A stretch of 64,000 nucleotides of DNA from Octopus vulgaris. Its lineage: Eukaryota. The stretch spans positions 28,272,001-28,336,000 of the forward strand of contig OX597836.1 of NCBI GenBank assembly GCA_951406725.2. The letters are read 5' to 3'. This document shows positions 27,554-60,982 of the stretch, in pieces (the first letter of the stretch is position 1; each line of letters opens with the position of its first letter). Under the pieces are notes generated by a model. It saw only the letters and a program-made list of their open reading frames with translations, had not been told where the DNA came from and ran no database searches. The position numbers were made by a program, and so were the translations under genes.

Positions 27554-27611
27554 TTTCAAATATTTTTGTTGTTAGTTACTAACGCCACCTGGTGTTAGCA
27601 TCAGTAAGTTA

Positions 27612-30869: not shown

Positions 30870-33712
30870 TTAAATGGTTAACCTTTTATCATTCAGCTTA
30901 TTCTGTCGAATGTAATGTTTATGTAATTCACATTGTTTTGAATTAATCAATTATGTATTATCTCATAGCTTAGAGATTTCAATGATGTGATAGTTTATTT
31001 TTAAGGCAGGAGTGAGAGGCTGGATCTGACTGCTTCGAACACAAAACAGGCAGGACACTTTGGTTTAAAAGCTAAAAGGTTAATGTCATATAAAGCGAAA
31101 AGTAGCAAGAGATAGGTGTAGAAGCTTTATTAAAAACGATGATTTCTTTATTTCTAGAAAAATATAAATGATACATTGTATGAGACAAGCAAATGAATGT
31201 AACACAGATTTTGATACATATTTATGGAATGTGACACAGGTATAGATTCTATTTAAAGAATGTAACACAGACGGTGATTCATATTTAAGGAATGCAACAC
31301 ACATTTTGATACATACCTGATGAATGTAACACAGATACCAATACATGTTTAAGGGATACTGGTATAAACATAATCCTTTCTATTGAAGGCACAAGGCCTG
31401 AAATTTTGGGGGATGGGGTAAGTTGATTACATCAACCCCAGTGTTTCACTGGTACTTAATTTATCAACCCCCAAAACGATGAAAGGCAAAGTCGACCTCA
31501 ATGAAGTTTGAACTCAGAACACAGGGACAGATGAAATACCTATTTCTTTATTACCCACAAGGGGCTAAACACAGAGGGGACAAACAAGGACAGACATAGG
31601 TATTAAGTTGATTACATTGACCCCAGTGCGTAACTGGTACTTAATTTATCAACCCCCAAAAGGATGAATGGCAAAGTCGACCTCAACGAAGTTTGAACTC
31701 AGAACACAGGGACAGATGAAATACTGCTACACATTTCGTCCAGCATGCTAACAATTCTGCCAGCTCGCCGTCTTTATGCATAAATAAATAATGTAAAACA
31801 TCCTGATACAGTTTAGTAAAAGTAGTAAACAATCTATTAGATAAACAAAGGAATGTAAACAAGTCTTAATACTGGAATGTTTATTTATTTATATTCTATT
31901 TTATAGGCAAACTTATGTAATAGACTTAATCATATTGAGACAGTGTTGAGGCCACAGTGCACTCAAATATCTTCAACTGCAACCAGAAAAGAGTCATCCA
32001 AGTGCTTGGCATAAAAATCACTCATAGATGATATGCCCCCGTTTCTGGCTCACAGACACACTACCTCCTCTTACTGCTTTTTTCTACAACTCTAATGGCC
32101 CCTGCTCCTTAGAGCTAACTGGGACTGTACAATCTCCATTCAGGTACTCCCTTCTTGGGTCTAAATTCCCAGGCCCTACACTAACCACAACACCCTAACC
32201 TTCTTTCCCAGAATACCAACCCTCTCAAATTTCCTCCTTGCAACTGTTAGAGTTAGAAAGGTTCAAAAAAGAACATTAATGGCATTTGTCTTATTGGTCT
32301 AGCAAGGTCTGCAAAAGCTATGGGCAGTGATCCTTCCTCCAAGGCCAACAAGTTTTTTTTTAAAAATCATCTTCGTCACCTAATGCCCATTTTTTCTTTA
32401 CCTGCCTGCATCAGACATAATTTGTTGAAGCAAATTTTCAGGCAAGTATTCATCATCATCATTTAATGTCCACCTTCCATGCCGACATAAATTGAATGGT
32501 TTGACAGCAGCCGGCCATTCTCTTTCATTTGTATACACACACACACACACACATGTGGGTTAAAGTAGTGAGGAAAGGCAATTTCCTCATTGCCTTTTCT
32601 CACTACTTTAGCCTATTCCTTCTGACTCAAAGGGAAACCACCATCAGCTGTTTCTTGAGCAAGACAATCACACAACCACAACTTCAATTGCTGCTCTAAC
32701 TGGAATTTTAGTGCAACACCTATTTGAGCACTCTGAACACATGCCTGTTAGTTTGAGTCATCCTCATGTAAAGTCCTCATATCCTAGATATATGTGTGTG
32801 TGTGTGTAGTTGATGACATAAGAATTTATAATCCGAAGAGTGTGAACTAAGTCTTTTTTGGGAATGGTGAAACACGAAGCTAAGAAAGCTATAAACAACA
32901 TCATATAAATATTCTTTTCTACTCCAGAGGCCCAAAATTTTGGGGGAGGAGGCCAGTCGATTAGATCGACCCCAGTATGCAACTGGTACTTAATTTATCG
33001 ACCCCGAAAAGGATGGAAGGCAAAGTAGACCTCAGTGGAATTTGATCTCAGAATGTAAAGACAGATGAAAAACCACTAAGCATTTCGTCTGGCATGCTAA
33101 CGTTTCTGCCAGCTCACCGCCTTATCTTGGTACCATATATTCTTTTCTACTCTAGGAACAAGGCCCAAAATTTTGGGGGAAGGGGTCAATCAATTAGATC
33201 AACCCCAGTACGCAATTGGTACTTAACTTATCAACCTCGAAAGGATGAAAGGTAAAGTCGACCTCGGCAGAATTTGAACTCAGAGCGTAAAGACAGAGGA
33301 AAGACTGCTAAGCATTTCACCCGGCATGCTAACATTTCTGCCAGCTCACCACCTTACAACATATAAATATTGGGTTAAAAACCTTTCGGATAGAAAAGTT
33401 GGAAGCTGCCCGTGGGGCAGCTTTAGTCTTTTTCTATCCAAGAGGAATTTTCCACCCAATACTTACATGCTTTTATTTATAGCATTATGCGCTTTGAATT
33501 TCACCATCCAAAAAAAAGGATTATATACTGAGAGAGAGAGAGAGAAAGTATATATACATATATACACACACACACAAATTCACTATATATGTATATACAC
33601 ACATTGGTGATATTTACATATCAAATAATCAGTAACATAATTCACAAAGATAACACAGAACTAGTAAGTTCCAATTCTGGCCATCACCTCATACTACAAT
33701 ATCAACAATAGC

Positions 33713-33993
33713 TCATAGTTCTTCTTTCTTGGTTCTGTTGACCTTTACAGTTGCTCTGAGCTGCTTCTTTCCTTGACCCCTTTTTCTAGATCCCTTCGGC
33801 TCCTTTAAATATCTCATTTTGGGGTGTGGGACATTTCCATGGCACCCTTGCATGAGGTGCTCAGCTGCTCGGAGTCCAGATCTAAATGCCCCTTGGATGG
33901 TGCCGAATCTGGTGGAGTCAGTATAGTCATTGGCGAAGTAGATGTGAGGACAGACCGGCTTGGAGACAGCATCCCACTGGGTTTGGGACATAC
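33713..33993 (-). CDS. amine oxidase-fold protein, terminal exon 7, ending KEEL
   Basis: Pyrimidine tract + gaaAG. PV.PHIYFANDYT....GTIQGAFRSGLRAAEHL is equivalent to FAGE.T...GT..GA..SG.R.A. The seven exons sum to 1578 nt = 525 aa + stop. Confidence 0.92.
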
Positions 33994-36096
33994 CTTTCAG
34001 TCGGAGAGAAAAAGATGAAAATGAGAAACAATATTTCTGATACAGAATGCTGAGTGAAAAGGATAAAAAGAAAAAAAAAACCCTGCATCAACAACGTTAT
34101 AACAATCTTTAGTTTTATGTGTTTTTCTTCTTCTGAAGGAGAAAATGAAGAAGACAACGAAGATGACAGCAATGAAGATGACAACGATGAAGAAGAGAAG
34201 GCGACAGCAATGAAGACAGGGTGACAAAGACGACGGCGACAAAGATGACGGAAACATTGACAACAAAGACAATGATGATCATGAAGAAAGAAAGAAAGAA
34301 AGAAAGAAAGGAAGGAAGGAAGGAAAGAAAGACGGAAAGAAAGAAAGAAAAAAAGAAAGAAAGAAAGAAAGGAAGAAAGAAAGAAAGAAAGAAAGACAGA
34401 AGGAAAGAAAGAGAAAGAAAGACGAAGAAGAATGAAGAGAGAATGAAAAGAAGAACAAAGGAAGAATAAAGAAAGAATGAAGAAAGGAACAAAAAAGGAA
34501 GAAGATCGAAGAAGAAATTACTCATTAAGCCCCTAAAGTGTGAAAAGTGAAGTTGACTGGAACAGGATTGAAACTCCCTATGTAAGGGAGGAGGACCTAA
34601 TTAAATATAACATCGTCTCTCCTTGTATATGTTGACCTACATAACAATAATGTAGTTGTTTTGTATAAACATAAGCAGTGAATATGTATTAATGTGATCC
34701 CATACAGGCTTTCTGCTTTGATTTAGGGACTAGGACCTAACTGTGGGTATGTCTCCATAGTTACACAGACAAGGGGTCCAAACAGAATCATTGTCACCTG
34801 AGAAATTTCAAAAAATTATTCTCTGAAATAATAAAAGAAATAGGCACAGGTGTGGCAGTGTGGTAAGAAGTTTACTTCTCAATGACATGGTTCCGAGTTC
34901 AGTTCCACTGTGTGGCACTTTGAGCAAGTGTCTTCTACAACAGTCCCAAAACTTTAACAACAAAAGCTAATATGGGCCCCACTCCAATGGTCATATGGAT
35001 CCTGGTTGAGAACCATCAGACTAAACCTTTGAAGCTGGTGCCCCAGACTGGCCACTTTTCAATGATTGAAACAAGTAAAATATAGAACATAAATTAAAAA
35101 GAAAACTCTGTCTCAAAGGTCTGTGAAATGAGTCAACACCATTAACAGAAGGAGAAGAACGAGGTGGGGTAGGGGTGGTATATATGTTAAATCTTTGGAG
35201 ACAAAACTTAGTGATGTTTCTACACTAAAGCAAACAAACATTTTTACAGATTGGCACCATTTCAACAGAGGCAGCAAAACTTGTAGTCTTATAGTTAAAA
35301 TAGGACCTGACATCTTGCAAAGCTTGTCACTGGTGACCGAGAGAGTGGCAAAAGGGTTGTGCAAGCATTTATCACTTAACCCTTTTGATACAAATCCGGC
35401 TGAAACTGCCTCTGGCTCTGTAGTACAAATGTCTCATTTTCATAAGTTTTGAATTAAAATCTTCCACCAAACCTTTGTCACAATTTATGTTCCTAACACA
35501 AGCTGAATGATAACTAAGTTATTTTACTAAATTCTTTGTTACATTTAAAGTAATTGAAAGAAACACAGAGCATCTCAAAATAAATACAGTAATGAAAGGG
35601 TTAAAAGCACTCATGCTGGTGCCATGTAGAAAGCAGTAGTGATGGTGCCACATTAATCCTTTTGATACCAATCCGGCTGAAACCAGCTCTGGCTCTGTAG
35701 TACAAATGTTTTGTTTCCAAAAGTTCTGAATTAAAATCTTCCACCAAACCTTAGTCACAACTAATGTTCCTAACACTAGCTTAATGATAACTAAGTTATT
35801 TTGCTAAATTCTTTGTTACATTTAAAGTAATTGAAAGAAACACAGAGCATCTCAAAACAAATACAGTAATGAAAAGGTTAAAAGCACTCATGCTGGTGCC
35901 ATGTAGAAAGCAGTAGTGATGGTGCCACATTAATCCTTTTGATACCAATCCGGCTGAAACCAGCTCTGGCTCTGAGTACAAATGCCTTGTTTTCAAAAGT
36001 TCTGAATTAAAATCTTCCACCAAACCTTAGTTGTAATTTACGTTCCTAACACTAGCTTAATGATAACTAAGTTATTTTGCTAAATTCTTTGATATA

Positions 36097-36464
36097 TCTT
36101 TATATATAAAAGTCAAGTTGTGTGTCTGTCTCCTACGATTTAGATTCCTAACTACTCCCAGATTTTGCGGTGCAGTTTAACCAAAACCGGGTATCTTATA
36201 GTCGTGATTCATATCGAGCCCTTCTGGGTATTAGCGCACGTCTACGATTTTTTTTTTCATTTTAATGCATTTTTTTCGCTATTATATAAGGGAAGAAACT
36301 CTCTAAAAATGTCTACAATGAGTCAACGATTTAAAAAAAAATTTACCATCATTTTTTTTCCATTTTTAATGCATCTTTTTGCTATTTTCTGGCTATAACT
36401 CTCTAAAAATGCTTATATAGTTATTTCCCTTACAAACCCGAGCAACGCCGGGCGATACTGCTAG
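36097..36464 (+). mobile_element. non-autonomous Helitron nested in a piggyBac-type MITE
   Basis: Same TC...hairpin-CTAG ends; splits the host MITE at an A|T site. Confidence 0.85.
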
Positions 36465-36742
36465 TTTAAAATAATTGAAAGAAACAGAGCACCTCAAAAT
36501 AAATACAGCAACGAAAGGGTTAAATCCAAAGACATACAGATGTCTCACTATTCATTTCATATCTTGATCCGTTTTGTATTTTATAAACTCCTATGGTGAT
36601 GGCTGCATAGTGACTATTCAGGCACAAGTAATGATGAAAGTAAATTAGACCTTATCAGGTTGAATGTGAAATGGCCATCATATGAGAAGATGAGGCTTTC
36701 ATGTCACACACACACACACACACACACACATCTAGCAAAAGA

Positions 36743-37243
36743 ATACCCTCCATCAGGCATTTGCCATATCCTGAACGCCTTACTTCCCTGGGTATGGACA
36801 CATTGAAACTCCGACGTCTGGCAGCTGACTTGGCAGACACCCATAAAATTATCAACCATCGCACAAACAATAACTCTGAGCACCTCTTCAAACTCCACCC
36901 ATCTAACACCCGTGGACATATTTACAAAGTAAGAAAACAGCACAGCTCCCATGACTTCAGGAAACATTTTTTCACGCTGAGAGTTGCTGAAGCGTGGAAC
37001 AAACTGCCGGCATCGGTTGTTAGTTGTCGGAGCACTGCATCCTTCAAAACTTCCATGCTTCCTGAGATTCGCCAACACTACACCTGATTTTCTCCCCTCC
37101 ATACACACGCAAGCATGTATCTGACTCATACACTGTTCACTTTCCAGACATTTGTACATTACTGCATGTACTTTATATGCACTTTCTGACAAGTTGTGGT
37201 GCACCTGAGCACTGTATACAATAATTTCATTATTATTATTATT
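36743..37243 (+). mobile_element. CR1/L2-group LINE 3' fragment with (ATT)n tail
   Basis: YPERLTSLGMDTLKLRRL..DL...TRGH...FFTLRVAEAWNKLP. Confidence 0.87.
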
Positions 37244-37244
37244 A

Positions 37245-37396
37245 TCTCTCTCTATATATAAACGGCAGTTTGTCTGTGCGTTTTCTGTGTGTCTGTTTTC
37301 TCGTACCCTCACTCTGACCACGGCTTTATAACTCTCTAAAAATGCTTTATAGTTATTTCCCTTACAAACCTGAGCAACGCCGGGCGATACTGCTAG
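37245..37396 (+). mobile_element. mini-Helitron (~150 bp)
   Basis: A|TC...GAGCAACGCCGGGCGATACTGCTAG|T; ends about 30 bp from the exon 6 donor. Confidence 0.75.
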
Positions 37397-37427
37397 TTAT
37401 AACTAAAATTGACATGAGAATACTCAC

Positions 37428-37553
37428 CGACGGTGGGGTAAGAGAGAAGTCCCTGACTGAAAGGATCAGCTGCCCAGTTACTTGTTGTCACACTCAAGAT
37501 GGCATCTTTGGACAGATTCTTCAAATGAAACATTGCTGCTAACCGTTCCAGTG
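37428..37553 (-). CDS. amine oxidase-fold protein, exon 6 (not in the ORF track)
   Basis: ttctAG/GTgagt. ALERLAAMFHLKNLSKDAILSVTTSNWAADPFSQGLLSYPTVG carries the T.W..DP...G..S motif. Phases 1/1. Confidence 0.9.
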
Positions 37554-37959
37554 CTAGAAGAAACAGTCAAGTGTATTGTTAGTTATTGGAGTCTTGTATG
37601 GAAGTTATTGTCTTTCAGACAGTCAGACACACAAACGACATTACTGTTTGACCAACACCTTGAAGCAAACAAAAAAGCCTTTATGTAATCACTCAACCTG
37701 CTAGAAATAGCAGCCAAATCTCCCTTAATCACACTCACAACAATAACAAAAAAAAGACAGGATGAAGTGTCACAAACGGAATACCTCGGATCATGAATCT
37801 ACTCAATCAAGGCTGACCTGGGGTTAAACAAGAACTAATATTCTCTTTATAAAATAGTTAAAATAGTTAAATAAATTTCTTTAAGATTTCCTCAAAATCC
37901 TGTTAATATTGTTTCAGCTTTGATGTGAAAAGAATATGGAATTGTGTAAATATTTGTGA

Positions 37960-38506
37960 GTTAAGTTAAGTTAATTTTTTGGCTCAAAAAGCAAAAAGCA
38001 AGGCCATGTAGGGGGACATGGAGTTAGGTACAGGGAGGGTGTTCATGCAAAGAGTTCAGGCCATTTGTGGTCAAGGGAGACTTTGAACCGAGCGGTCATC
38101 GGCATCTTCACTATCTCGTCCGGCAGCTTATTCCACGGATCCGCAACCCAGACGGAGAAAGCCCCTATCCTTCAATTGAGATGAAATTGTCGCAGATAGA
38201 GCTTTTCGGAGTGACCCCGCAACCGACGCTCTGGAGCAGGAGTGAAGAACAGCTCTTTCGAGAGGTTACACTTTCCGCTTATGATGTTGTGAGCAAGAAT
38301 GAGATCACCACGGCATCGGCGTTTTTCTAGAGAATAAAGGTCGAGCGTCTTCAGCCTTTCTTCATAAGACAAATGCGTGAGACCAAGAACCATGCGGGTA
38401 GCCAGCTTCTGGACTCTTCCGAGATGATGTATGTCTTTGAGGAGATAAGGAGAAGAGGCTTGAATCCCGTACTCCAATATGGGTCTCACCAGCGGGACTT
38501 TATGAT
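37960..38506 (-). mobile_element. CR1 LINE 3' fragment with (TTAAC)n tail
   Basis: RPILEYG...YEERLKTLDLYSLEKRR.RGDLI...LRGH; frameshifted. Confidence 0.87.
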
Positions 38507-39338
38507 TTTCGTGAGAGGAACAGTTAGGCCTCCAATACTGAGGAATCAGGAAACTGGAAACTTCATCTAAACGAACTCCTCTAATACCATCTAAGGGTGA
38601 AAGATTTACAAATGAAGTTTAATAGATAAACATAGAGCACTGACTCAGTTCATTTGACTGTAAATAAATGCTCTAAATAAATGACACAAACTTTAAGGGG
38701 GGATCTTAAGGCAATTGTAGTTTGGAAACTTTAACAAGTAAATCCTTTCACTGGTTCTTGTTTCCAAGAGGGAGATGGATGGTGGGGTGTACTCTTCACC
38801 AAATATGTGATGAAAGACTTAAACTGGATTTGAACTAAAGATCTGTGATTTGGTAGTTCAGATACAATATCTGCTCTGACATGCAGCCCCCATGTGGCTT
38901 ACTGGGTTACCGTATTCAGCTCACAATTGTAAGGTCATGAATTCAATTCCTAACATTGCTAGCATCGAAAAATGGACACTAATTGATGATGATGGTGGTG
39001 GTGATGGTGATGATGATGATGGTGGTGGTGGTGGTAATGCTGATGTTGTTGTTGTTGTCTTCCATACAGCATCAAATTCCTATTATTCCAAGTTTTCTCC
39101 CAGATGTTTTGTACCCCCATAACAAATACCACATATTCAACACAGCAGGCTCACCTCCTGCCAGCCTTTATATGTGCCCCCTACATTCAATCCCCATCTT
39201 TCATTATTCACACAACACAAGGAAATAAGGTTTGAAGTAACAGAGTTACTAGTTACTTATTCGCAAGACGAGGACAATACACAGAAGATCCCATGTCCTT
39301 TGATATTTGATATGAATAAATAGTTTTAAGATACGAAC

Positions 39339-39569
39339 CGATAGTTTTGAGTTGGGTGTCAGAGTAATTTCCAAACTTGGTAGCAGTATTGCCTTGGATA
39401 AAGGTGGTCAAATACGGATCCTTACGACGAGACAACCAGCCAGTGTTTAACCAAGTGGTCATCAATCCGATTTCACTCATATCGGATGCGGCGAAATGGA
39501 AGAGTTCTGTGTCCTTTGGCCAAAATATTGAAGCAAATTTAAAGACAACGCTATTCACACTGCTAACCT
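39339..39569 (-). CDS. amine oxidase-fold protein, exon 5
   Basis: gtacAG/GTtcgt. VNSVVFKFASIFWPKD...YLTTFIQGNTATKFGNYSDTQLK is equivalent to NKV.L.F...FW and SDE. Phases 1/1. Confidence 0.85.
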
Positions 39570-41168
39570 CTGTACGTTGGGTGAAGAAACGGAAGAAAAG
39601 AAAAAAAGAAAGATTACACCAATATATCATGGATGGAAACTAGATGACAGATACAGATTCACATGCACACAAATCATAATTACACTGGTGTGGCTTGTGG
39701 TAAGACATTTGCTTCCTAACCACATGGTTCCAGGTTCAGTCCCACTGTGTGGCATCTTGCGGTCTGATCAAAGCCTTGAGAGAATTTTGTGGACAGAAAC
39801 GGAAAGAAACCAGTCATAAGAGTGCGTATGTGTTAATGTATATATCAATGTGTGTGTCTTAGTGTTGTGTTTGTCCCACATCACAACTGATGATGGTTTG
39901 TTTACATCCCTGTAACTTAGTAGTTCAGCAAGACAGACAATAAAATAGGTACCAGACTTTAAAAAACATGTACTGGTGGGGGGAGGGGGTTCAATCTCTT
40001 TCACAAAACCCTTCAAGGCAGTACCCCAATATGGCCACACCCCACAAACTGAAAGAAGTTAAAGATATAAGATATACATGAAACAAAATCACACACAAGC
40101 ATAGCAAACACATATAAACAAATATAAGTAAACACATAGATGTAAAGATATAGTGGACACTACAGCATAATAGTTAAATGACCACTAATCCCTGTATCTG
40201 GATGGTACCTCAGCTACTCGGTTGGAGAGCCATAAGTGGACTCAGTAACCTAAGAGACTCAGTTTTCTGTCCCTTTACTCTTTTACTTGTTTCAGTCATT
40301 TGACTGCTGCCATGCTGGAGCATCGCCTTTAGTCGAGCAAATCGACCCCAGGACTTATTCTTTGTAAGCCTGGTACTTATTCTATCTCTTTTGCCGAACT
40401 GCTAAGTTACAGGGACGTAAACACACCAGCACCGGTTGTCAAGCGATGGTGGGGGGACAAACACAAACGCACAAACACACATACATATACACAACAGGCT
40501 TCTTTCAGTTTTCGTCTACCAAATCCACTCACAAGGCTATGGTCAGCCTGAGGTTATAATAGAAGACACTTGCCCAATGTTCCACGCAGTGGGACTGAAC
40601 CCAGAACGATCTGGTTGGTAAACAAGCTACTTACCACACAGCCACTCCAGCACCTATAATCTCTACCAAATATTCACATTTTTCACAATATTTCTGAAAA
40701 AGAACGGGAAATACTTGGGGGTTGATAAAATAAGTACCAGTTGATCACTGGGGGTCGATATAATCAAATTCCCTCCTCCCCCTAAATTTGCTGGCCTCAG
40801 GCCAAAATTTGAAAATAATAATAATAATAATAATCCTTTCTACTAAAGGCACAAGTGCCTGAAATATTTAGGGAACGGACTAGTTTATTACATCAGCCCT
40901 ACAGTTTCACTGGTACTTAATTTATCAGCCCCGAAAAGATGAAAGACAATGTCAACCTCGGCTTTCAAATTCTGCCAAGGTCAACTTTGCTTTTCATCCT
41001 TTTGGGGTCGATAAATTAAGTACCAGTGAAACACTGGGGTCGATCTAATCGATTAGCCCCCTCCCCACAAATCTGAGGCCTTGTGCCTCCAGTAGAAAAG
41101 ATTATTATTATTATTAAAGGGTTTGTTTTTTATGAATGAGCTGTTTTGCATCATAAATTTCACCTTAC

Positions 41169-41410
41169 CTAAGGAATTCAAAGCCACACGTTTTTCAACA
41201 GGTAGCATAGGATCAAACGCTATTCGGGAGGCTTTGAGAACCCCTAACGGCACAGCAACAATGACCGCATCTGCTTTCTTCTGACGCCGATCCTTGGTTC
41301 GGACCAAAACCTTACTGGTATTGTCCACTTGGGCTATCTTGATCTGAGAAACCACCTTATTCATCTCCAGATTTAACGGTGCTTCTTCCAGCTCAACACC
41401 ACTGACCAAC
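41169..41410 (-). CDS. amine oxidase-fold protein, exon 4
   Basis: ttttAG/GTaagg. ADAVIVAVPLGVLKASRIAFDPMLPVEKRVAL is the classic PAO/LSD1 motif. Phases 2/1. Confidence 0.93.
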
Positions 41411-41806
41411 CTAAAATGTTTAAACCATGTTTTTCATGAAAAGTAAAAGACAAAAACAGGATTCATCTGTGACATATTTAAAAGAGCAGAGAAAGGGCTA
41501 CCTGGGAATGAGAGAGGAATGAGGATTACGTACAAAAATGATATCTTGGGGGTCAGTAGATGAAAGCTGAAATTTTCGTACAAATAAAATACTTTAGAGA
41601 ATTACTATTGGTAAATCTCACAACGAGAGATATTCAGCATCAGTACTTTGGAGTAAAGATTGTTTGCCAACATAACATGGCAGTCCTAGTTTAAGAGGAA
41701 TGTTGCTGTAATTTAGCCCCAGAAGAAATCGTCTCCAGCTGTGTCATATAGCCAAAAGGGACAGACACACACATACACAGAGAAATGGTGGGAAGGAAGA
41801 TGTTAC

Positions 41807-42054
41807 CTGTCGAGGACTTCCTGGAGCCCTTCTTCAATAACTGTATTAGGGAGCAAGTTAAAGCGAGATTTCAAGGATCTGCAAGAGATTAACTTTGGGG
41901 CCAGATTGTATCTGGCTAAAGTCAAAGTATTGAAGACATTCGGTGGAAGGGTCTCTTTGAAAACCGGTTGCAGTCGATATAAATTGTCAACGGCTTCTTG
42001 CAATGAAACATCCCTGGTTGGTGAACTGGAAGTCTGGACAGCAGCCATTAAAAG
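41807..42054 (-). CDS. amine oxidase-fold protein, exon 3
   Basis: Polypyrimidine tract + caacAG and GTaaca donor. ...RDVSLQEAV...VIEEGLQEVLDR is equivalent to D.SL and G...L. Phases 0/2. Confidence 0.85.
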
Positions 42055-42879
42055 CTGTTGAAGGGGAAAAAAAGAGATAATTATAAGAAATGGATTACAT
42101 TGTGATTATAGTCAGAAATACAAAAAAAAGGGTTAAAAAAGATGATTGTTACAACTGCGTGGCCATTGCCGCTGGACTGGCTCCTGTGCAGGTGGCACAT
42201 AAAAAGCACCATCTGGGCGTGGCTGTTGCCAGTACCACCAAACTGGCCCTCATGCCAGTGGCACGTAAAAGCACCCACTACACTCTCAGAGTGGTTGGCG
42301 TTTGGAAGGGCATCCAGCTGTAGAAACTCTGCCAGATCAGATTGGAGTCTGGCTCGCCAGACCTCAGTCAAATCATCCAACCCATGCTAGCATGGAAAGT
42401 GGACGCTAAATGATGATGATGATGATGAAATGCCAGATTAGGGCTCCCTTGAGGCTTTAGCAACAACAAAGGAAACAAGTTATACAAGAGGGTGCTGAAA
42501 AGTTCCTGGCTTTAAGGGTATTGCGAAAGGCCAAATTGGAAGCTCAACCTTTGAAGTTCTTTCACAGGGCTTAGTAAAACTGAAGGACTGCTGCAATAAG
42601 TGTGTGACTCTGAGAGGGGAATATGCTGAATAAAATCATAATTGATCCTCCTGTATCTTCTTTTACCTAAAACCAAGAAATTTTCAGTACTACCCCATAT
42701 ATGTAACTACTCTTCCCCTCAAAAACACACTGACTGTAGTGAGGTTTGAACTGGCCATGGTGAAGTCTGTAGTCCAACACTTTAACAACAAGACCAATGT
42801 GCCTCTTTTGTTTCTATTTGTAGATTTAAAACTCAATTGTTCTTTAGTTGGATGTAGCCATTCTGGAGCAGCATTAATA

Positions 42880-43190
42880 GGACCCCCTTCGGTCATGAAG
42901 GACCATGGGATTACACCTAGAAAGTTACCCTCTGAGGTTGTTTATGGAAGACCAGCAGTCACTCATGCATACCAGCCTCTACTCTCCACACCACCAATGT
43001 TATCCAAGGGAAAGGCAAAGGGGCCGATACAGCTTGGCACCAGTGACGCCACGACTCATTTCTACAGCTGAGTGAATTGGAGCAACGTGAAATAAAGTGT
43101 CTTGCTCAAGAACACAACACACTGCTTGATCCAGGAATTGAACTCATTACCTCATGATTGTGAGCCTAACGCTCTAACCACTGAGCCATT
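42880..43190 (-). mobile_element. tRNA-headed CORE-like SINE
   Basis: Minus strand reads ATGGCTCAGTGGTTAGAGCG...GAGTTCAATTCC...GTGTTCTTGAGCAAGACACTTT. A related copy is at 23120-23270. Confidence 0.65.
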
Positions 43191-43814
43191 ATTATATCCA
43201 AGACAGGATCATTGAGCCAACGAGGAATCCACTACATCAGTCATTAGCAAACTACAGCCAGTGGGCCACAGGCATGATGTAGTGGATTCCTCTTTGGCTC
43301 AACAATCCTGTTTTGGATATAATAATGCTGCTGCAGCATGGTCACATCCAATTAAATTTTAATTTTAAATTATTTAAAATTTAATTTTAATTCAAATTAT
43401 TTATGCAGCCAGGAGGCCACACACAACCCACAAGGTTTTCTGAATGGCACACATAAGCACGTTTATGTTAATTCAAACATGATTGTTATAAAGACCTAAA
43501 TGTGTCTGCATTTAAATTCTATCTTGTTTTCGTCTGAATGCACCAACCACATGCCATATCATTATTGTTGCCGTGTTGTACATTTCTATCAACCTGCCTG
43601 TCACAGACCCTGATTTTATGACCTAAACTTCCTGCTTTGACGAGATCCTAACTAAAACTGTCAAACAAAATTTTATGTTGATTTTGTTCCAAACATGAGA
43701 TTAAAAACGACAAGGTTATTTTACTGAATTCATCCTTATTTTTAAAATTAACTGAATCAAAAGCAGTGTATTTTAACAGAAATATGGTGATGAAAGGGTT
43801 AAATGGCTGATTTA

Positions 43815-44050
43815 AGGCGGCGAGCTGGCAGAAACCTTAAGCACGCCGGGCGAAATGCTGAGCGGTATTTCGTCTGCCGCTACGTTCTGAGTTCAAATTC
43901 CGCCAAGGCCGACTTAGCCTTTCATCCTTTCGGGGTCGATTAAATAAGTACCAGTTACGCACTGGGGTCGATATAATCGACTTAATCCGTTTGTCTGTCC
44001 TTGTTTGTCCCCTCTGTGCATAGCCCCTTGTGGGTAGTAAAGAAATAAGG
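43815..44050 (+). mobile_element. tRNA-derived SINE family 2 with Nin-like domain (copies at 3572-3805 -, 6712-6947 -, 11756-11956, 53118-53330, and others)
   Basis: GGCGGCGAGCTGGCAGAA...GAGTTCAAATTCC head followed by GTCGACTTTGCCTTTCATCCTTTCGGGGTCGAT..AAGTACCAG; many dispersed copies. Confidence 0.85.
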
Positions 44051-45211
44051 GTTAAATGGCTGATTGTAGATCAGTGGTGCCCAACCAAGGTCTACATGGC
44101 CCTTGGGGGTCCATATAAGATTTTTTGTTGTTAAAATTTATGTGCAATAAATAGTGATCAAAGAAACTTGACTGCTATTTCTAGCAGGTCGAGCAACCAT
44201 AGAGAAGCCCTGTCATTGGTATGTCATGTTATATGTGACAAGGTATGTTAGCCTGACCTTGTTGTGTGGAGTGGGTATAAGACAGCAGAGAGGAGATATG
44301 AAGTATGTAGGAAAATATTTAGGTTGAATGTAACCAGTGAAATAATCACTTTGTTGGTCTATATCTATTTTATTAAATTTGTCATAAAGACAGAACAAAG
44401 ATTAGGTAGCTTTGCGGGCTGGACAAGACGTTAATGAAATGAATGATAAGGATGGGAGAAGACAGAAAGCGCCCACCGACCCTCTGCTTCTCTGTAACAT
44501 TGTTCTTTCACAAACATACATTGAGGTATTAAACCTCTTACATTTTTCAATATTTAACCCTTTAGTGTTTAAACCGGCCAAATCCGACCCAATATATTCT
44601 ACATGTTTTATATTCAAACTGGCGATATCTAGCCTCTCACTCCTAACCTACAATGTCATTCTGAAAATAAACAATCACATCATTGAAACCTCAAAGATAT
44701 AAGATAATGCATGATTAATTCAAAACAATTTGAGTGAAAAGGTATTACATTTAACAGAGTAATCTGAACACTAAAGGGTTAAACATATATTGAGGTATTA
44801 ACCCTCTTACAATTCTTCAATATTAAACATGCAATCTTACGGTTCCAGTACATTTTACGTCAACTGACCACGTGTATTTGTTTATATATGATCGTCAATT
44901 TCCGTAAAAAAACTTTTATTTTTTTACATATGGGGTTGGGGGGAGGGAATGGGATCTTTGGGGTTAGGGTTACGGTTTGGGGTTGGGACCCTAACCCTAA
45001 CCCTATTAAACATATACATTGAGGTGTTAAACCTCTTACAATTTTTCTGCACAAACAATTTATTTGGACTAAAAGGTCCATTACAAATTTAACACATACT
45101 TGAGGCAATAAACCTCTTATACTAATCCCCGCTTAACTCTCTTGCGTTATCAAAGTTGAATATTTTGGTAGTTAGTATATAGAAGATTGTGATTGGTAAT
45201 GAATAACTCAC

Positions 45212-45396
45212 CTGTTGATGGATCTGAGCCAGATTTTCAAACTCCAGATCACGGTAGACTTTGTTTGTGTTACCATCAATCAACTGCTTGAATTCAATAC
45301 GCTTTGGACTCACTTCAAATGGACCCAAAAATTCACTCAACATGTTCTCAGGGTCATCATCATCAAACATGACAATTCCCAGATCAGCTTCAAGAC
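45212..45396 (-). CDS. amine oxidase-fold protein, exon 2
   Basis: aatAG/GTgagt. GLEADLGIVMFDDDDPENML occupies the DLGAxW position. Phases 1/0. Confidence 0.85.
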
Positions 45397-46734
45397 CTAT
45401 TTAAAAAAAAAAAAGGAATATATTTTACCTTGTTAAGTTAGTTGATGATTAACATTTCTTACAGTGAGTTCTTCAGATTTTCTGTGGGGGCAGAAAGAAA
45501 CATGTTTTTACTCTGTGAAACTGAATTTATTTAGTCAGGAATTTGACACTAGAAAATCTAAAGACTTGTTTTTGATTGATGTTCCAAAAAGGAAAAGAAA
45601 ATTTACTCAAGACAACATCATCATTTAACATCCACTTTTCCATTCTTGCATGGGTCAGATGGAAATTGTTGAGGCAAGTTTACTACAGTTGGATGCCCTT
45701 CCTGTCACCAACCTTCACCTGTTTCCAAATATGTTCTTCAGTGTGAAAACTAAAAATGAACAACACTGCTTGTATGATGGTGATGCTCGTTTACAACCAT
45801 AACATGATGTCAAAGCAACCAGACACAAGAAACACACATATATAAACACATACGCACACACACACATAGATCGATAGACAGACAGACAAAACAGATAGAC
45901 ACAACATACAGAAACAATAGGTTTCTTTCAGTTTCCACCTACCAAATCCACTCACATTTCTTTGATCAGCTCGGGGCTATAGTAGAAGACACTTGTTCAA
46001 GGTGCTGCAATGTGGGATTGAACCTGAGGCCACATGGTTGGGAAGTAAACTTCATCACCACACAGCCATGTCTGGACCTTTCAACAACGAAAGAGTATTC
46101 TAAGCTAAACAGGCAAACAGCTTAGGAGTGGCTGTGTGGTTTCAAAACATCTCCCATTAACTCTCTGAATACCAACACTCACAGAAATAAAAAAATACAT
46201 TAGCACAGTGCATCCCAAAATGAAAAATACCCCACTTTAAATATTGGGTAAATTTTTGCACACCTACTTCTTTATTAATGAGAAAACACCCTATCAGCTA
46301 AGGGATCCTGTCTTGCAAATAACTGGTGCAGGTGACATGTAAAAAGCCTCCAGTGTAGTCTGTAAAGTGGTTGGCATTTGGAAGGGGCATCCAACCTTAG
46401 AAATCACATGAAAACAGACTGTAGACCTTGGCACAGTCTTCTGGGTTGCCAGCTAATGTCAAACCCTCCAATCCATGCCAGCAGGGAAGACAGATGTTAA
46501 ATTATGATGATAGTTCTTATGATAATTCCCATTTCTTTGTCAAGATAAGTTTTACTGGTTTAAAATCATATTTATTTTATGAAACAATTTGCCTGCTCCT
46601 TTCCCAACCCCCTGAAGACATACACTGAATTTAGCACATTGTAAATTTTCACTGTTGCATCTCCAACCTTTCTTTCTCCCAGCATGGAAATGGTTGCCAA
46701 GTTAAATGTACCATTCTGAAATTAAACAAATATT

Positions 46735-47124
46735 GGATCTTTACCTTTTGATTGACAGATTTACAAAATAATCTTTTGTAACTAAACACTTTCAAACTTC
46801 GGACACTTGTAGAATGTGTCATACAAAAAAAAAAATCTTTTACTCTTAGCGTTTTTGAGAAAAGCTTATATTTACGAACTTATTTCACGTTAAAGTTGTC
46901 GTATTTCGGTAATTTCAACCAATCAATGACATGTATTCAGCTGAATAAAATTACTGCTATTGTTTGTCAACAAGAAACAGATTCCGGCGGTGTATATTTC
47001 GTTTGTCACTGTTATTTATGACAACCCTAACCCTAAAACCTTAAAGCTAAAACCAGTACAAACGCATGAACGATGTCATACAAAATTTTTTTTTTTAAAT
47101 CTGTCAGTCAAAAGGTAAAGATCC
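46735..47124. mobile_element. sister MITE subfamily (GGATCTTTACCTTTTGA TIR)
   Basis: TSD CAAATATT; shares internal blocks and CCCTAA repeats with the family above. Confidence 0.88.
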
Positions 47125-47630
47125 CAAATATTAAATACATGAAATACAGGTACTTTACAAGAATGACACCTTTATTAATACTGTACAGTGCAAAGTTCTA
47201 CTGAACTAGTCTGGTCATCATCATCACCATTTAACGTCCAATCTCGATGCAGGTATGGGTTGGACCGTTGGACACGGATCTGGCTAGCAGGGAGATGTCC
47301 AGATTCCAACTGTCTGTTGAGGTATGGTTTCTATGGCCAGATGCCCTTCCTAATGCCAACCACTTAACAGAGTCTTTTCGGTTTGAACGGCAGTTTTTAA
47401 CATAATTACTTTTTACGTGTCACCAGCACAGGTACGTTTACACAGCACCAGCACAGGTGCATTAACAAAGCACTGACACAGATGCTTTGTAAGTGGCACC
47501 AGCACCTGGAAGGACAAGCCTGTATGTGTGGAAGACAGCAGTTTTACTTAGCCTGAGATGTCTTATCAAGTACAACAAATTTCCACATCTCCTGGTTCCT
47601 TGTCATTTCCTCTGTAGGAATCTGAAGTTC

Positions 47631-48028
47631 GGCTCTTTTCGGTTTGAACAGCAGTTTTTAACATAATTTCTAGGTAGTTAAAAAGTTTTAAACTTCGTAT
47701 ACTGGTAGAATGTGTTTATAAAACATCTTTTTCTCTTGGCTTTATTGAGAAAATTCTATAGTTTGTAAGATATTTGTTGTTTTTTTTTTCTTCAATTTCT
47801 GCAATTTCAACCAATCAATGACCGTCTATTGAGGTGAAAACATCCCTCATTTAAGAAACAGATTGGGTTTATTTACATTTGGGAAGAAAAAAAGATACCC
47901 TTCCCCCACCCATAACCCTAACCCTAAAACAGATTGAAATGCAATAGATCGATACTAGGGTCATAATTATGGGTGACAATTTCATATGACACCGCTAGAA
48001 AAAACTGCCGTTCAAACCGAAAAGATCC
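47631..48028. mobile_element. MITE with GGATCTTTTCGGTTTGAAC-type TIRs and 8-bp TSD
   Basis: TSD TGAAGTTC on both sides; internal CCCTAA repeats. Confidence 0.9.
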
Positions 48029-49610
48029 TGAAGTTCCTGCTTGTAAATTGGTGTGGATTCTAGGAAATTCCAGACCATTACTGTCAGGAAAGTCAGAGCT
48101 GTATCTGTATTCTGTTCACATCCAGGCTACATTATAATGGTGTTTATCATAAGGAGGACAAGAGCCCTAGGAAAGGTTTGAGAGAACTGAAAAAGGGGAC
48201 AAATAAATTGCAATGTTTAATGAATTTTAAATGACTTTAAACTTTAAAAAAAAAATAGGCATCAGAGTAGCAATGCATACTCTGTGCACAGATAAGTTCT
48301 TTTTGCAAATTATAGTGCAGCTTACAATGTGTTGCTTACCCATGCTTTTTAATTAAACTGAATTATTAATTTTTTTTTTTAAGAAACCAAACATTGGCAA
48401 AGATTATGACTATGCAAAATTAATTTTTTTCTTCTAGAAATTTTCTAGCAAATTACCTGGGCTAGTGAAATAGGATTAAATATTCAATAATTTAAGGCTG
48501 TAGGAGAGAACTGAGCTTTTGACAAGAATTTTTTATTTAAGAGTATTTCCAAGAACAGAACAACCTCACCATGTGAATAAAAGTATTGTGTATTTAATAA
48601 TGAAAATATTCCTGAAAGTTTAGAATAAGTTAATTACAAATATACAAAAAAAAAAAACATCTTTCAAACCGAAATTTGTCACATATTTCTCTTTTACATA
48701 ATTGTAATTTCTCATGCATAAAACACAAGACTACAGGGGAAAAAAAAGTCAAAAAGTTAAAAATGAAAATTGAAAAACACAATCCTATTCAAAACCTGCA
48801 AACTCAAAGGAATAAGCATTTTAGGCAAAACAGAATTTCCGACGTTATTGTATAGGGTTGCCATTATTATTATTTAATCATAGGTCAAACTGGCTCATTA
48901 CCTTTATTTAAAGGTCGTTTTTGTTGTGACATCTCATCACACCTCCCTCCCCCACCCCGAAACAATCTGACATTACAAGGAATCTTTAATTTTAAAGTGA
49001 ATATGGTACGTTAAAATCAAAGATCACCAGGATTATTCAAAGAAACCTTCCTTTTTTTAAGCTAGTAAAATATGATGTGAGAATTTGGCTGTTATTTCTA
49101 GCAAGTTCAGCACTAAGTGATTATTAGATTACTAGCTGGAAAGAAAGTTAATTTTTTTTTTTTTTTTTTGATTTTTCCATATTAAATTCCGATAGAATCG
49201 TAATTCACGCCATCTGAAAGGTATCAGGAGACAATTTCGATTTCATCTAAAAATACCCATTTTTTCAGAAACTTACGGGATGAAAAACAGTAACTGTTTG
49301 TACAATTTGATTTTATTGACTAATTTACTTTTTAGAAAAAGAATACAATAACAAACTTTTTTAAAAAAAAAAAGGTAATTTTCTGGCCGTGACAGAAGAA
49401 AAGCACTTAATAAGGTAACACTTAAGATTTTACGTCGCTAAAATAGGAAGATACTAGAATGGTAGTTTTCCTTAATAGCGATATCTGTTTTACATAAGAA
49501 GACTGTATAGATTTGTTTGTCCGTTGTTATAATTAGTTCACTGTCTTTAATTAAACCTATTAAAATACCAAATGACCAATAAACATGATGCGGAAGCAAT
49601 TTCTTCTTAC

Positions 49611-49875
49611 CTTTTGCACGGTCAAAGTTGATGCGGTCAGTCCACACACGACCCCCGTAGCGCTCCCTTCGTGCTTCTAACACAGTAACATCCCACTGGC
49701 CAGAGTTGGAGAGGGACCTGGCCGCTGCTAATCCAGCCACTCCAGCCCCGACCACCACTACAGAGCCGAGAGACTTAGCAAGCTCCTGTGATTTTTTGCC
49801 GTTGTCTGTTTTCGAACCTTCGACTGCATGTGACCAGACTAAACAGAGTAACAACACAGTAAATGAGACAACCAT
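49611..49875 (-). CDS. flavin amine oxidase-fold protein, exon 1 (signal peptide + FAD Rossmann motif)
   Basis: MVVSFTVLLLCLVWSHAVEG is a hydrophobic leader. VVVVGAGVAGLAAA...VTVLEAR..YGGRVWT gives GxGxxG plus the GG motif. GTaaga donor, phase 1. Confidence 0.92.
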
Positions 49876-51534: not shown

Positions 51535-51952
51535 TTAAGTTAAGTTAATTTTTTGGTTCAAAAGAGCAAAAAGCAAGGCCATGTAGGGAGACATGGAGTT
51601 ATGTACAGGGAGGGTGTTCATGTAAAGCGTTCAGGCCATTTCTGGTCAAGAGAGACTTTGAACCGAGCGGTCATCGGCATCTTCACTATCTCATCCGGCA
51701 GTTTATTCCACGGATCCGCAACCCGGACAGAGAAAGCCCCTCTCCTTCGATTGAGAAGAAATCGTCGTAGATAGAGCTTTTCGGAGTGACCCCGCAGCTG
51801 ACGCTCTGGATCAGGAATGAAGAACAGCTCTTTCGAGAGGTTACACTTTTCGCTTATGATGTTGTGAGCAAGAATGAGATCACCACAGCGGCGGCAGCGT
51901 TTTTCTAGAGAATAAAGGTCGAGCGTCTTCAGCCTTTCTTCATAAGACAAAT
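51535..51952 (-). mobile_element. CR1 LINE 3' fragment (same family as 37960-38506)
   Basis: SYEERLKTLDLYSLEKR...FSVRVADPWNKLP with the same tail. Confidence 0.87.
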
Positions 51953-52152
51953 GATTTTGTTCTCCATGTTAGTATGGACTGGGTGACTTGACAGGATCTA
52001 ACGTTCCAGTGGACTGTGCCCAATTCTTCTGTCTACTTTGACTTGATTTCTATGGATGGATGTTCTTCTGAATGCCAACCACTTCCCAGAGTGCACTAGG
52101 TGTTTTTTGTTGTTGTTTTTTGTAACAAGACACTGGCACTAGTGAGATCACC

Positions 52153-55548: not shown

Positions 55549-55973
55549 AAATAAGGGGAAAAAAAAAAGAATTTCTTCCTAGAATAATATTGTATATGAC
55601 TTGAGATCTTTGCCTTGCCTTAATGTTTGTTGCCCTGTTTAACAATTATAATTCCGCAGCATCAAAAATCTGCAATGGCTCCATAACAACCGTCTCGGTT
55701 ATAACCTTGGAGCCCCAGTAATCCGTTACAGCACTTACCTAGCATACCTAATCGTTTAGATCACCTGTGAACTAGACCTCCATACTTTGTACACACGTAT
55801 ACACATATATACAAATACATATATACACACACATACATACATATACACACACATACATAAATACACACATACATATATATATACACACACATACATATAT
55901 ATATACACACACATACATACACACATACATACATATATAACACATACATACACACATACATACACACATACAT

Positions 55974-59730: not shown

Positions 59731-60259
59731 GTATGTAGAGGTTATGAGAGGTAATGGTAATTTTTTTTTATATGTATATATGTATGTATGTATATATATG
59801 TGTGCGTGTGCATGTTGTGCTACAAACACACACTGTATATTTTCTAATTTGTTCTTGCTTTGTTGTTTTCAGCAGTATTCTTGAGGACCTTACCAACTGT
59901 AACATGAATTGAAAGAGATATACAGATATATACAAGCATACACACACTCACACACAGAACCATACTCACACACACAGCCATACACATTCATTCATCATAT
60001 GTCCATAGAGACTGTACATAAAAAAATACTAAATCCTGATACCTGCAAATGTGCAACATTTGTAGCACACCCAAATTGAAAACGCAAAAGAAAAAGAAAA
60101 AACAGGACAGTGGCATTGCAAGTGCACTCAGCCGTCCCATGCACACATGCATCAATGTCTTTCGGCTAGCAGGAGTCCAATGAATGTGTGTGTGTGTGTG
60201 TGTATGTGTGTGTGTGTGCGCAATACAGTGTTACAAGACGTAGAGGTATGAGGTGAACA

Positions 60260-60520
60260 CTAGTGACAGCCACAAGCCTTCACCTTCATACTTCGATATT
60301 TCTTGAGAATGACATTGGAATTATCATCAAAGTAGAGCACAGAGATGGCACTCAGTTTGGTAGGGGAACAGCAGGGCTTAGGCATTGTCTGAGATTTCAC
60401 TGTATGAAGCAGAAGTTGTACAATGGCATGATTTGTGGCGTTCATGTTCAGACCGAGTGGAAATATGCAGTCGCCGTCGCAGTAGAATGCAGAGTAACCC
60501 TCAGGTGCAATGATCCAACT
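60260..60520 (-). CDS. BMP5-8: BMP5-8 copy B, terminal exon
   Basis: Reverse complement of 20058-20318 with one synonymous change (CCT/CCA). Intact ccgcAG acceptor. Confidence 0.95.
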
Positions 60521-60867
60521 CTGCGGGGGAAAAAAAGGAGAGAATAAAGAAAAGAGCAAATGAAGAAATAATTACGTCTTTTAATTGATTCCTTACATAG
60601 GAAAGGGGCCAGAAATGTGTGACACACACAGATTCATGTATACTCAGATACACACATGGATACACAGATGCACACAGCCACATACACACACACAAATACA
60701 GACATGCATAGATGCACACACACAAACACATACATGCGCACACAGATACATAGATACACACGCATACAGATACGTACACATACACATGCAGATACACACA
60801 TGTACAAACACAGATACATACACATACAGACATGCACACACACACAGATATGCGCATTTACACATGA

Positions 60868-60982
60868 TGCAATGATCCAACTCTGAGGGGGGGAAAAAGG
60901 AGAAAATAAAGAAAAAAGCAAATGAAGAAATAATTATGTCTTTTAATTGATTCCTTACATAGGAAATGGGTTATAAATTTGT
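60868..60982 (-). pseudogene. truncated duplicate of the BMP terminal-exon acceptor plus its first 5 codons (SWIIA)
   Basis: About 100 nt of intron end + cctcAG|AGTTGGATCATTGCA, about 360 bp upstream of the functional acceptor of copy B. Confidence 0.85.

What the first reader, a model, noticed from the sequence alone, without database searches (positions are those of the whole stretch)
33713..49875. ER-targeted amine-oxidase-fold protein with KEEL and substituted catalytic residues: candidate luminal pseudo-enzyme or new flavoprotein
Seen: the hand-spliced 525-aa protein has an N-terminal hydrophobic leader, four N-glycosylation sequons (NTS, NYS, NLS, NRT) and ends in KEEL. The FAD-binding GxGxxG/GG motifs are intact, but several family hallmarks have changed. 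NKVV becomes NSVV (the Lys equivalent to LSD1 K661/MAO-B K296 that bridges water to flavin N5). GSYS becomes GLLS (aromatic-cage Tyr, LSD1 Y761/MAO-B Y398). DLGAxW becomes DLGIVM, and FAGE becomes FAND. Known: KEEL is a functional KDEL-receptor variant; animal PAO/SMOX/LSD/MAO are peroxisomal, cytosolic, nuclear or mitochondrial, and molluscan LAAOs are secreted rather than retained. Inference: an ER-resident flavoprotein that probably is not a conventional O2-using amine oxidase (a dehydrogenase, ligand sensor or chaperone). All splice sites and frames are intact, so it does not look like a pseudogene.
Basis: partly seen in the sequence, partly recalled or inferred. Interest (0 to 1): 0.82.

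Follow-up and report, generated by a model that had tools for sequence, protein, structure and literature searches.

The report
Mollusc ER-retained amine-oxidase-fold flavoprotein
This octopus gene belongs to a mollusc-wide branch of the amine-oxidase family with a signal peptide and KDEL-type ends, so it likely stays in the endoplasmic reticulum; the cephalopod copies lack the lysine that normally helps the enzyme react with oxygen, so they likely work as a poorly oxygen-reactive redox enzyme on an unknown substrate.

Summary
The 7-exon gene gives a 525-aa protein identical to an Octopus vulgaris record labelled 'LSD1 homolog'. Four of six introns and the KEEL end are seen in spliced contigs, and 7 of 7 coding differences are silent. 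The model folds as a flavin amine oxidase (pLDDT 90; Z 39.6 to LSD1). Orthologs in cephalopods, gastropods and bivalves form one clade: 14 of 16 end in KEEL/KDEL/RDEL/REEL, against 0 of 149 other family members. The cage tyrosine (LSD1 Y761) is gone in the whole clade (0 of 15). The flavin-N5 lysine (K661) is lost only in cephalopods (0 of 6); gastropods and bivalves keep Lys (7 of 10) or Arg (3 of 10). FAND is Octopus-only, and loss of the Trp is not diagnostic. Best reading: an ER-luminal FAD enzyme with a non-polyamine substrate, likely poorly O2-reactive in cephalopods (0.4). Rivals: pseudo-enzyme (0.3), ordinary oxidase (0.22). No activity was tested. Ten literature searches found no description. 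PCYOX1 (KTEL) and ERFAD (KEEL) are precedents for ER flavoproteins. New variant of a known kind.

The parts
49611..49875 (-). Exon 1: ATG, hydrophobic leader, GxGxxG, E67, GGR
49825..49875 (-). Predicted signal peptide, about residues 1-17 (cleavage judged by eye; no predictor available)
   Evidence: hydropathy; a leader in 14 of 16 clade members
49732..49749 (-). GAGVAG dinucleotide-binding motif, residues 43-48
   Evidence: the three Gly invariant in all full-length rows
45212..45396 (-). Exon 2: DLGIVMFD (family DLGASWIH)
41807..42054 (-). Exon 3: helical substrate-side domain
   Evidence: covered by spliced contigs, 3' junction seen
41169..41410 (-). Exon 4: FAD-domain strands
   Evidence: PF01593 E 7e-12; both junctions seen
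39339..39569 (-). Exon 5: holds the lysine site; a single match in the genome
39550..39552 (-). Codon S320, at the position of LSD1 K661
37428..37553 (-). Exon 6: W417..GLLSY
37444..37446 (-). Codon L427, at the position of LSD1 Y761 (aromatic cage)
33713..33993 (-). Exon 7 coding part: C447, FAND, GTIQGA, C483, basic tail, KEEL, stop
   Evidence: PF01593 E 3e-7; spliced contigs
33926..33931 (-). N454-D455 (family G-E; LSD1 G800-E801); Asn only in Octopus species
33716..33727 (-). KEEL ER-retrieval-type motif
   Evidence: orthologs KEEL/KDEL/RDEL/REEL
33327..33712 (-). 3' UTR, at least this long
   Evidence: spliced contig of run X1
55739..55764 (-). Candidate 26-nt upstream exon with an ATG; spliced to the AG at 49839 it would give the annotated leader-truncated isoform CAI9739531.1 (inferred)
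   Evidence: the only match to that pattern upstream in the window; no RNA test

Best explanation
It is a flavin-amine-oxidase-fold protein of a mollusc-wide clade with a signal peptide and a KDEL-type end; it likely stays in the ER lumen, likely binds FAD and likely oxidises a non-polyamine substrate, and in cephalopods, which lack the flavin-N5 lysine, it likely reacts poorly with O2 (a slow oxidase or a dehydrogenase with a protein acceptor). Shown: gene, splicing of exons 3-7, fold, clade, residue changes, purifying selection. Inferred step 1: a secretory-pathway amine oxidase with canonical active site (the nearest relatives mostly have a leader, five of six have a hydrophobic GPI-like tail, all keep Lys) gained an ER-retrieval tail in a molluscan ancestor. 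Inferred step 2: the polyamine-positioning residues (cage Tyr, His of W-I-H) were replaced while Lys/Arg stayed, so gastropod and bivalve copies are likely still O2-using oxidases with a new substrate. Inferred step 3: on the cephalopod stem the Lys became Asn/Ser together with A96I/T and H466Q near the flavin, while segment 317-412 became tightly conserved as a new substrate or partner site. The substrate and the electron acceptor are unknown.
For: Fold: pLDDT 90.3, pTM 0.88; Z 39.6 LSD1 (rmsd 3.1, 420 aligned), 39.2 LSD2, 38.2 maize PAO; PF01593 E 6e-55 over 46-479. ER: 14 of 16 clade rows have the motif and 14 of 16 a hydrophobic leader, against 0 of 149 background. The motif varies (KEEL, KDEL, RDEL, REEL) while the tail before it is only 10-24% conserved between distant members, which points to selection on the signal. 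KEEL and RDEL are listed as retrieval sequences of PDI-family proteins (PMC12781119). Clade support 100 SH-aLRT, and genes follow the main mollusc classes (quick tree). FAD: GxGxxG, E67, GGR, W330, W417, G472 kept in all full-length clade rows. Selection: 7 of 7 coding differences silent, P about 3e-4. Substrate change: Tyr site 0 of 15 vs 120 of 128; His site N or D in 16 of 16 vs His 99 of 128. Lys site 0 of 6 in cephalopods vs 116 of 128 background; the genome's own LSD1 and PAOX/SMOX-like genes keep it. The lysine is described as strictly conserved in a PAO survey (PMC7576179) and as promoting O2 reaction (10.1101/2025.04.24.649827). Segment 317-412 is 58% identical to the two sister orthologs vs 28% to gastropods/bivalves. 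Precedents: PCYOX1 (ER, KTEL, thioether substrate); NicA2, Pnao and AtPAO5 as dehydrogenases in this fold.
Against: No activity, FAD binding or localisation was measured. Lysine loss does not by itself predict a dehydrogenase: NicA2 and Pnao keep it and LSD1 K661A keeps activity. Continued erosion in octopods (G454N in 3 Octopus species vs Gly in 128 of 128 background; E455D; G314E; long stem 0.51) fits decay of catalysis equally well. Two sister orthologs keep an aromatic Phe at the cage site. No luminal electron acceptor is known for it. Whether another basic residue (cephalopod-invariant H338 or R461) replaces the lysine could not be read from the model. The sister-group link to GPI-like relatives has only 84 support. 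One annotated isoform lacks most of the leader, and one Argopecten locus lacks KDEL.
Confidence: 0.4

Rival explanations
1. In cephalopods, or at least octopods, it is a pseudo-enzyme: an ER-luminal FAD-fold scaffold, chaperone or ligand binder, derived from an ER oxidase that is still active in gastropods and bivalves.
For: Both the Lys and the cage Tyr are gone in octopods, with further changes at family-conserved sites (A96I, P107, G316S, G454N, E455D, H466Q): 14 of 67 family-conserved columns are changed in all four octopods. Long cephalopod and octopod stems. Strong conservation of segment 317-412 could mark a partner surface. ERFAD is a luminal flavoprotein lacking the catalytic cysteines of its relatives.
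Against: All ADP/pyrophosphate-binding motifs are intact. Active family members tolerate loss of single hallmarks: NicA2 has Asn at a cage site, some fungal PAOs have Thr there, LSD1 K661A is active.
Confidence: 0.3
2. It remains an ordinary H2O2-producing oxidase in the ER, with only the substrate changed; another residue or the pocket geometry takes over from the lysine.
For: 10 of 10 gastropod/bivalve orthologs keep Lys or Arg. PCYOX1 is an ER-retained O2-using enzyme of related fold. LSD1 K661A keeps activity. H338 and R461 are invariant basic residues found only in the cephalopod rows.
Against: The lysine is kept in 144 of 149 and 116 of 128 background members (the sets overlap slightly) and called critical for potent oxidase activity. 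No basic residue is conserved near position 320 in cephalopods.
Confidence: 0.22
3. The main product is not ER-luminal: it is secreted, or a leaderless isoform with a basic tail works in the cytosol or nucleus, as the 'LSD1' label would imply.
For: Annotated isoform CAI9739531.1 starts inside the leader. The tail has 13 Lys/Arg in 36 residues. The first two introns were not tested by RNA. In one published table KEEL-bearing FOXRED2 stayed in the ER even without the motif, so that table does not show that KEEL suffices.
Against: Leader and ER motif are conserved across three mollusc classes. There is no SWIRM domain, and the genome's real LSD1 lies on another contig. A clade-wide cysteine pair (C447, C483) and sequons suit a luminal protein (disulfide inferred).
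Confidence: 0.08

Closest known systems
LSD1/LSD2 (KDM1A/B) amine-oxidase domain
   Same: Best sequence and structure matches (E 3e-25; Z 39.6 and 39.2); also lacks the Trp of DLGAxW (LSD2); Thr at the second cage position
   Different: No SWIRM domain; signal peptide and KEEL; K661 and Y761 equivalents replaced; the genome has a separate LSD1. The database label is a best-hit misnomer.
Polyamine oxidases (maize PAO1, SMOX, PAOX, Fms1)
   Same: Same fold (Z 38.2 maize PAO, 32.5 SMOX); maize PAO1-type enzymes also enter the secretory pathway (PMC7576179)
   Different: Lys300, Phe403 and His/Glu62 equivalents are Ser, Leu and Asp here; ER-type tail; the PAO survey names no mollusc or ER form
Prenylcysteine oxidase PCYOX1
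   Same: FAD enzyme of amine-oxidase-like architecture with a KTEL tail, ER-located, non-amine substrate
   Different: Different family (15% identity, Z 22.6); uses O2 efficiently; membrane-associated
ERFAD/FOXRED2
   Same: ER-luminal flavoprotein ending in KEEL, with catalytic residues of its relatives missing
   Different: Glutathione-reductase homologue, not PF01593; an analogy only
NicA2, Pnao (and AtPAO5): dehydrogenases within the flavin amine oxidase family
   Same: Same fold (Pnao Z 33.0); exported enzymes that pass electrons to a protein; NicA2 has a non-aromatic cage residue
   Different: Bacterial periplasm with cytochrome c as acceptor; they keep the lysine
Uncharacterised secretory amine oxidases with hydrophobic C-tails (P0193, Syssomonas P0199, P0210, P0215, P0268; Gordionus P0195/P0349)
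   Same: Next-best hits; leaders; P0193 and P0195 share the one-residue insertion before R-Y-GGR
   Different: Keep Lys (6 of 6) and Tyr/Trp at the cage site; GPI-like tail (5 of 6) instead of KDEL

Membership tests
Flavin amine oxidase superfamily (PF01593) | Profile match over the whole domain | tested here: met
   E 6.2e-55, residues 46-479, profile 1-442/443
Flavin amine oxidase superfamily (PF01593) | Two-domain MAO/PAO/LSD fold | tested here: met
   pLDDT 90 model; Z 39.6, rmsd 3.1, 420 aligned to LSD1
Flavin amine oxidase superfamily (PF01593) | FAD-binding motifs GxGxxG, ribose Glu, GGR, C-terminal G-A-x-x-S-G | tested here: met
Flavin amine oxidase superfamily (PF01593) | FAGE motif | tested here: not met
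   FAND in Octopus; Gly and Glu in 128 of 128 background
Flavin amine oxidase superfamily (PF01593) | Actual FAD binding and amine oxidation | not testable with these tools
   needs protein
Polyamine oxidases (PAO/SMOX/PAOX) | Lys hydrogen-bonded via water to flavin N5 (ZmPAO1 Lys300) | tested here: not met
   Ser320; strictly conserved in PMC7576179 Table 1
Polyamine oxidases (PAO/SMOX/PAOX) | Aromatic residue at ZmPAO1 Phe403 | tested here: not met
   Leu427; Tyr in 0 of 15 clade rows, Phe in 2
Polyamine oxidases (PAO/SMOX/PAOX) | His (or Glu) at ZmPAO1 position 62 | tested here: inconclusive
   Asp100 where the background has His 99 of 128; acidic like maize Glu62, but the register to maize PAO was not checked
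LSD1/LSD2 histone demethylases | SWIRM domain, nuclear protein without a leader | tested here: not met
   no SWIRM hit; leader present; LSD1 encoded elsewhere
KDEL-receptor-retrieved ER-luminal proteins | N-terminal signal peptide | tested here: inconclusive
KDEL-receptor-retrieved ER-luminal proteins | C-terminal [KRHQSA][DENQ]EL (pattern recalled) | tested here: met
   KEEL in spliced contigs; 14 of 16 orthologs
KDEL-receptor-retrieved ER-luminal proteins | ER localisation in cells | not testable with these tools
   needs cell biology
Prenylcysteine oxidases | PF07156 prenylcysteine lyase domain | tested here: not met
   no hit at E 0.001 for the whole protein; exon 4 alone E 0.007, below cut-off
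Pseudogene | Broken frame or splice sites, relaxed selection | tested here: not met

The most novel reading that the evidence does not exclude
Cephalopods turned an ER-retained oxidase into a luminal dehydrogenase of the LSD/PAO type that oxidises a group on secretory proteins or lipids and hands the electrons to an ER protein rather than to O2: an undescribed electron route in the animal ER, with gastropod and bivalve orthologs as the living oxidase 'before' state.
Probability: 0.15. Interest if true: 0.8.

Novelty: new variant of a known kind. Interest (0 to 1): 0.5.

Why it matters
It adds an apparently undescribed compartment, the ER lumen, to the PAO/LSD branch of flavin amine oxidases in animals, in a whole phylum, under records labelled LSD1 homolog or uncharacterised. 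It also offers a natural series for the open question of what makes these flavoenzymes oxidases or dehydrogenases: orthologs with Lys (abalone, scallop, oyster), Arg (limpet), Asn and Ser (cephalopods) at the flavin-N5 site can be compared directly. If the cephalopod form is a dehydrogenase or pseudo-enzyme, it bears on ER redox control.

Tried and rejected
First fold with 7 sequences failed (pLDDT 49.9) and was not used. The Foldseek search of solved structures did not run; the VIA-align search stood in. The careful tree did not finish, so only quick SH-aLRT support is quoted; named PAOX/SMOX/LSD1 sequences were not in the tree. Word-index searches found only 5 orthologs; the HMMER search was needed for the rest, and it shows one protein per 50% cluster, so absence outside molluscs is not shown. 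Run search: no holder is on record as RNA; only the spliced joints are used as evidence. Exon 5 alone finds nothing in Pfam or PDB sequences. Atlas search only confirmed PF01593. Earlier findings: three look-ups returned nothing. Rejected: pseudogene; true LSD1 (no SWIRM, real LSD1 elsewhere); NKVV at 250-253 as the catalytic motif; Trp loss and FAND as proof of inactivity; prenylcysteine oxidase membership. dN/dS could not be computed (no ortholog DNA). No complex prediction was run, as no binding claim is made.


Full report
Observation. Seven minus-strand exons between 49875 and 33713 with GT..AG introns give 525 aa without internal stop, with a hydrophobic leader, four sequons and a KEEL end. 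The protein is identical to P0122, an Octopus vulgaris record (CAI9739532.1) named 'lysine-specific histone demethylase 1 homolog 3'. Contigs of four runs from four studies were laid on 33000-42400. They skip introns 3 and 4 in 3 of 4 runs and introns 5 and 6 in 4 of 4, exactly at the modelled sites, and continue past the stop codon. The runs are only guessed to be RNA, but the joints show splicing. Introns 1 and 2 were not tested; the 498 unlaid letters of the X1 contig fit exons 1-2 plus about 55 nt of leader. All 7 coding differences listed are silent; the chance from codon composition is about 3e-4. These cover exons 3-7 only, and some may be between species.

Fold and residues. Pfam PF01593 covers residues 46-479 (E 6e-55) with no SWIRM domain. 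A model built on 150 sequences has pLDDT 90.3. It matches LSD1 (Z 39.6, rmsd 3.1, 420 residues), LSD2 (39.2) and maize PAO (38.2) best; PCYOX1 scores 22.6. Alignment to LSD1 places S320 on K661, L427 on Y761 and N454-D455 on G800-E801. K661 and Y761 are described as the water-flavin lysine and the cage tyrosine (PMC3184146, passages). The genome's own LSD1 (contig C2) and a PAOX/SMOX-like gene (C14; family assigned from recalled motifs) both keep the lysine, and exon 5 has one match in the genome. So the database name is a best-hit label, and the changes are specific to this gene.

The clade. Searches found orthologs in O. bimaculoides, O. sinensis, Argonauta, Patella (two species), Haliotis, Bulinus, Sinanodonta, Ylistrum, Argopecten and Ostrea, plus four unnamed proteins. 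In a quick tree of 57 rows the 14 clade rows included form one group (SH-aLRT 100), split into a cephalopod branch (100; the unnamed P0003 and P0004 are placed there by the tree only) and a gastropod/bivalve branch (99) (the careful search did not finish). Of 16 clade rows, 14 end in KEEL, KDEL, RDEL or REEL; the exceptions are a fragment (P0250) and one Argopecten model, while 8 other Argopecten models end in KDEL. 14 of 16 have a hydrophobic leader; the Bulinus row that lacks one has a cluster-mate with a leader-like stretch before the same domain. None of 149 background family members has the motif; among 321 other held proteins over 380 aa, the 24 that have it are all cluster-mates of clade members. 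The tail before the motif is only 10-24% identical between distant members. A cysteine at 447 is in 15 of 15 clade rows with letters and absent from the background, with a second near 483; a disulfide is inferred, not measured.

Three layers of change. (a) Whole clade: the cage tyrosine is Tyr in 0 of 15 rows (Leu, Phe twice, Ser, Gly, Val, Asn) against 120 of 128 background; the His of W-I-H is Asn in 10 of 10 gastropods/bivalves and Asp in 6 of 6 cephalopods. (b) Cephalopods only: the lysine is Ser (4 octopods) or Asn (2), while gastropods and bivalves have Lys in 7 of 10 and Arg in 3 of 10; A96, P107 and H466 change on the same branch. (c) Octopods or Octopus only: E455D in 4 of 4, G454N in the 3 Octopus species. 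Of 67 family-conserved columns, 14 are changed in all four octopods. The dinucleotide-binding motifs stay invariant. Segment 317-412 is 58% identical between the window protein and P0003/P0004, against 28% to gastropods/bivalves and 38% among those.

Origin. The next-best hits (P0193, Syssomonas P0199, P0210, P0215, P0268, Gordionus P0195) keep Lys in 6 of 6 and Tyr/Trp at the cage site. Five have a leader and a hydrophobic C-tail that looks like a GPI signal (recalled pattern), and one Gordionus isoform has a leader. P0193, P0195, P0203 and one unrelated row share the clade's one-residue insertion before R-Y/F-GGR (12 of 294 proteins scanned, 8 of them clade members). The tree joins P0193, P0195 and P0203 to the clade at only 84, and the other GPI-like rows fall elsewhere. 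A secretory, canonical ancestor is therefore likely but not shown.

Mechanism. Most likely (0.4) the protein is an ER-luminal FAD enzyme whose pocket no longer suits polyamines and whose cephalopod form reacts poorly with O2. In favour: the lysine is called strictly conserved across PAOs (PMC7576179, section 11 and Table 1) and its placement tunes O2 reactivity (10.1101/2025.04.24.649827, passages); dehydrogenases exist in this fold (PMC9396064, passages; AtPAO5). Against: those dehydrogenases keep the lysine, LSD1 K661A keeps significant activity on nucleosomes (PMC11377572, passages), and octopod erosion fits a pseudo-enzyme (0.3). An ordinary oxidase with a new substrate (0.22) is open because H338 or R461, invariant only in cephalopods, might supply the charge; the model's coordinates could not be read to test this. 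A non-ER main product is unlikely (0.08), although record CAI9739531.1 starts inside the leader, which a 26-nt upstream exon at 55739-55764 spliced to the AG at 49839 would explain (inferred). ER residence as such I put near 0.9.

What is known. ER flavoproteins have precedents. PCYOX1 has an amine-oxidase-like architecture, ends in KTEL, is ER-located and oxidises a thioether with O2 (PMC11530802, passages; PMC2140024, one table passage). ERFAD/FOXRED2 ends in KEEL and lacks its relatives' catalytic cysteines (PMC12781119 and PMC3040216, passages). Neither is this family. Of ten searches of the open library, those aimed at this protein found no description: six accessions, 0 papers; amine oxidase + KDEL + endoplasmic reticulum + mollusc, 0; KDEL + amine oxidase + flavin + luminal, 0; two searches listed only unrelated papers (listings seen). 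The PAO survey has no mention of molluscs, octopus or the ER in its text and no hit for six mollusc terms in four supplement files held as text (I read part 1 of 7, section 11 and passages). Subscription journals, figures and preprint supplements were not visible and could mention these genes.

Verdict. A real, expressed, conserved gene that defines an apparently undescribed ER-retained molluscan branch of the flavin amine oxidase superfamily. It fails the residue tests for PAO and LSD membership. It is a new variant of a known kind; the catalytic state is untested. Interest 0.5.

Noticed in passing
window 19710-20690 (+) and 59864-60869 (-): About 1 kb inverted repeat at 93% identity holding two copies of a TGF-beta-domain last exon (19989-20315 +, 60263-60571 -; PF00019; BMP5-8/gbb-like by recall) with apparently the same peptide. 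The two converging BMP copies flank this gene and HYLS1: a recent inverted duplication or an assembly artefact.
   Followed up: partly
window 26273-27571 (-): 433-codon open frame with a HYLS1 C-terminal domain (PF15311, E 6e-25).
   Followed up: partly
window 55739-55764 (-) and 49839: Candidate upstream micro-exon with an ATG and an internal acceptor that would explain the leader-truncated annotated isoform; spliced to the AG just before the main ATG it would instead add four residues.
   Followed up: partly
proteins P0193, P0199, P0210, P0215, P0223, P0268: A set of uncharacterised amine oxidases with leader, canonical active site and GPI-like tail, one from the unicellular holozoan Syssomonas: possible cell-surface polyamine oxidases.
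   Followed up: no
proteins P0334-P0347 (Argopecten irradians): Several loci or models of the ortholog, with and without KDEL.
   Followed up: no
window 36686-37087, 38172-38618, 14190-14564, 51618-51968: Intronic and intergenic open frames that look like LINE reverse-transcriptase tails (recalled resemblance), deeply covered by repeats in the laid contigs.
   Followed up: no
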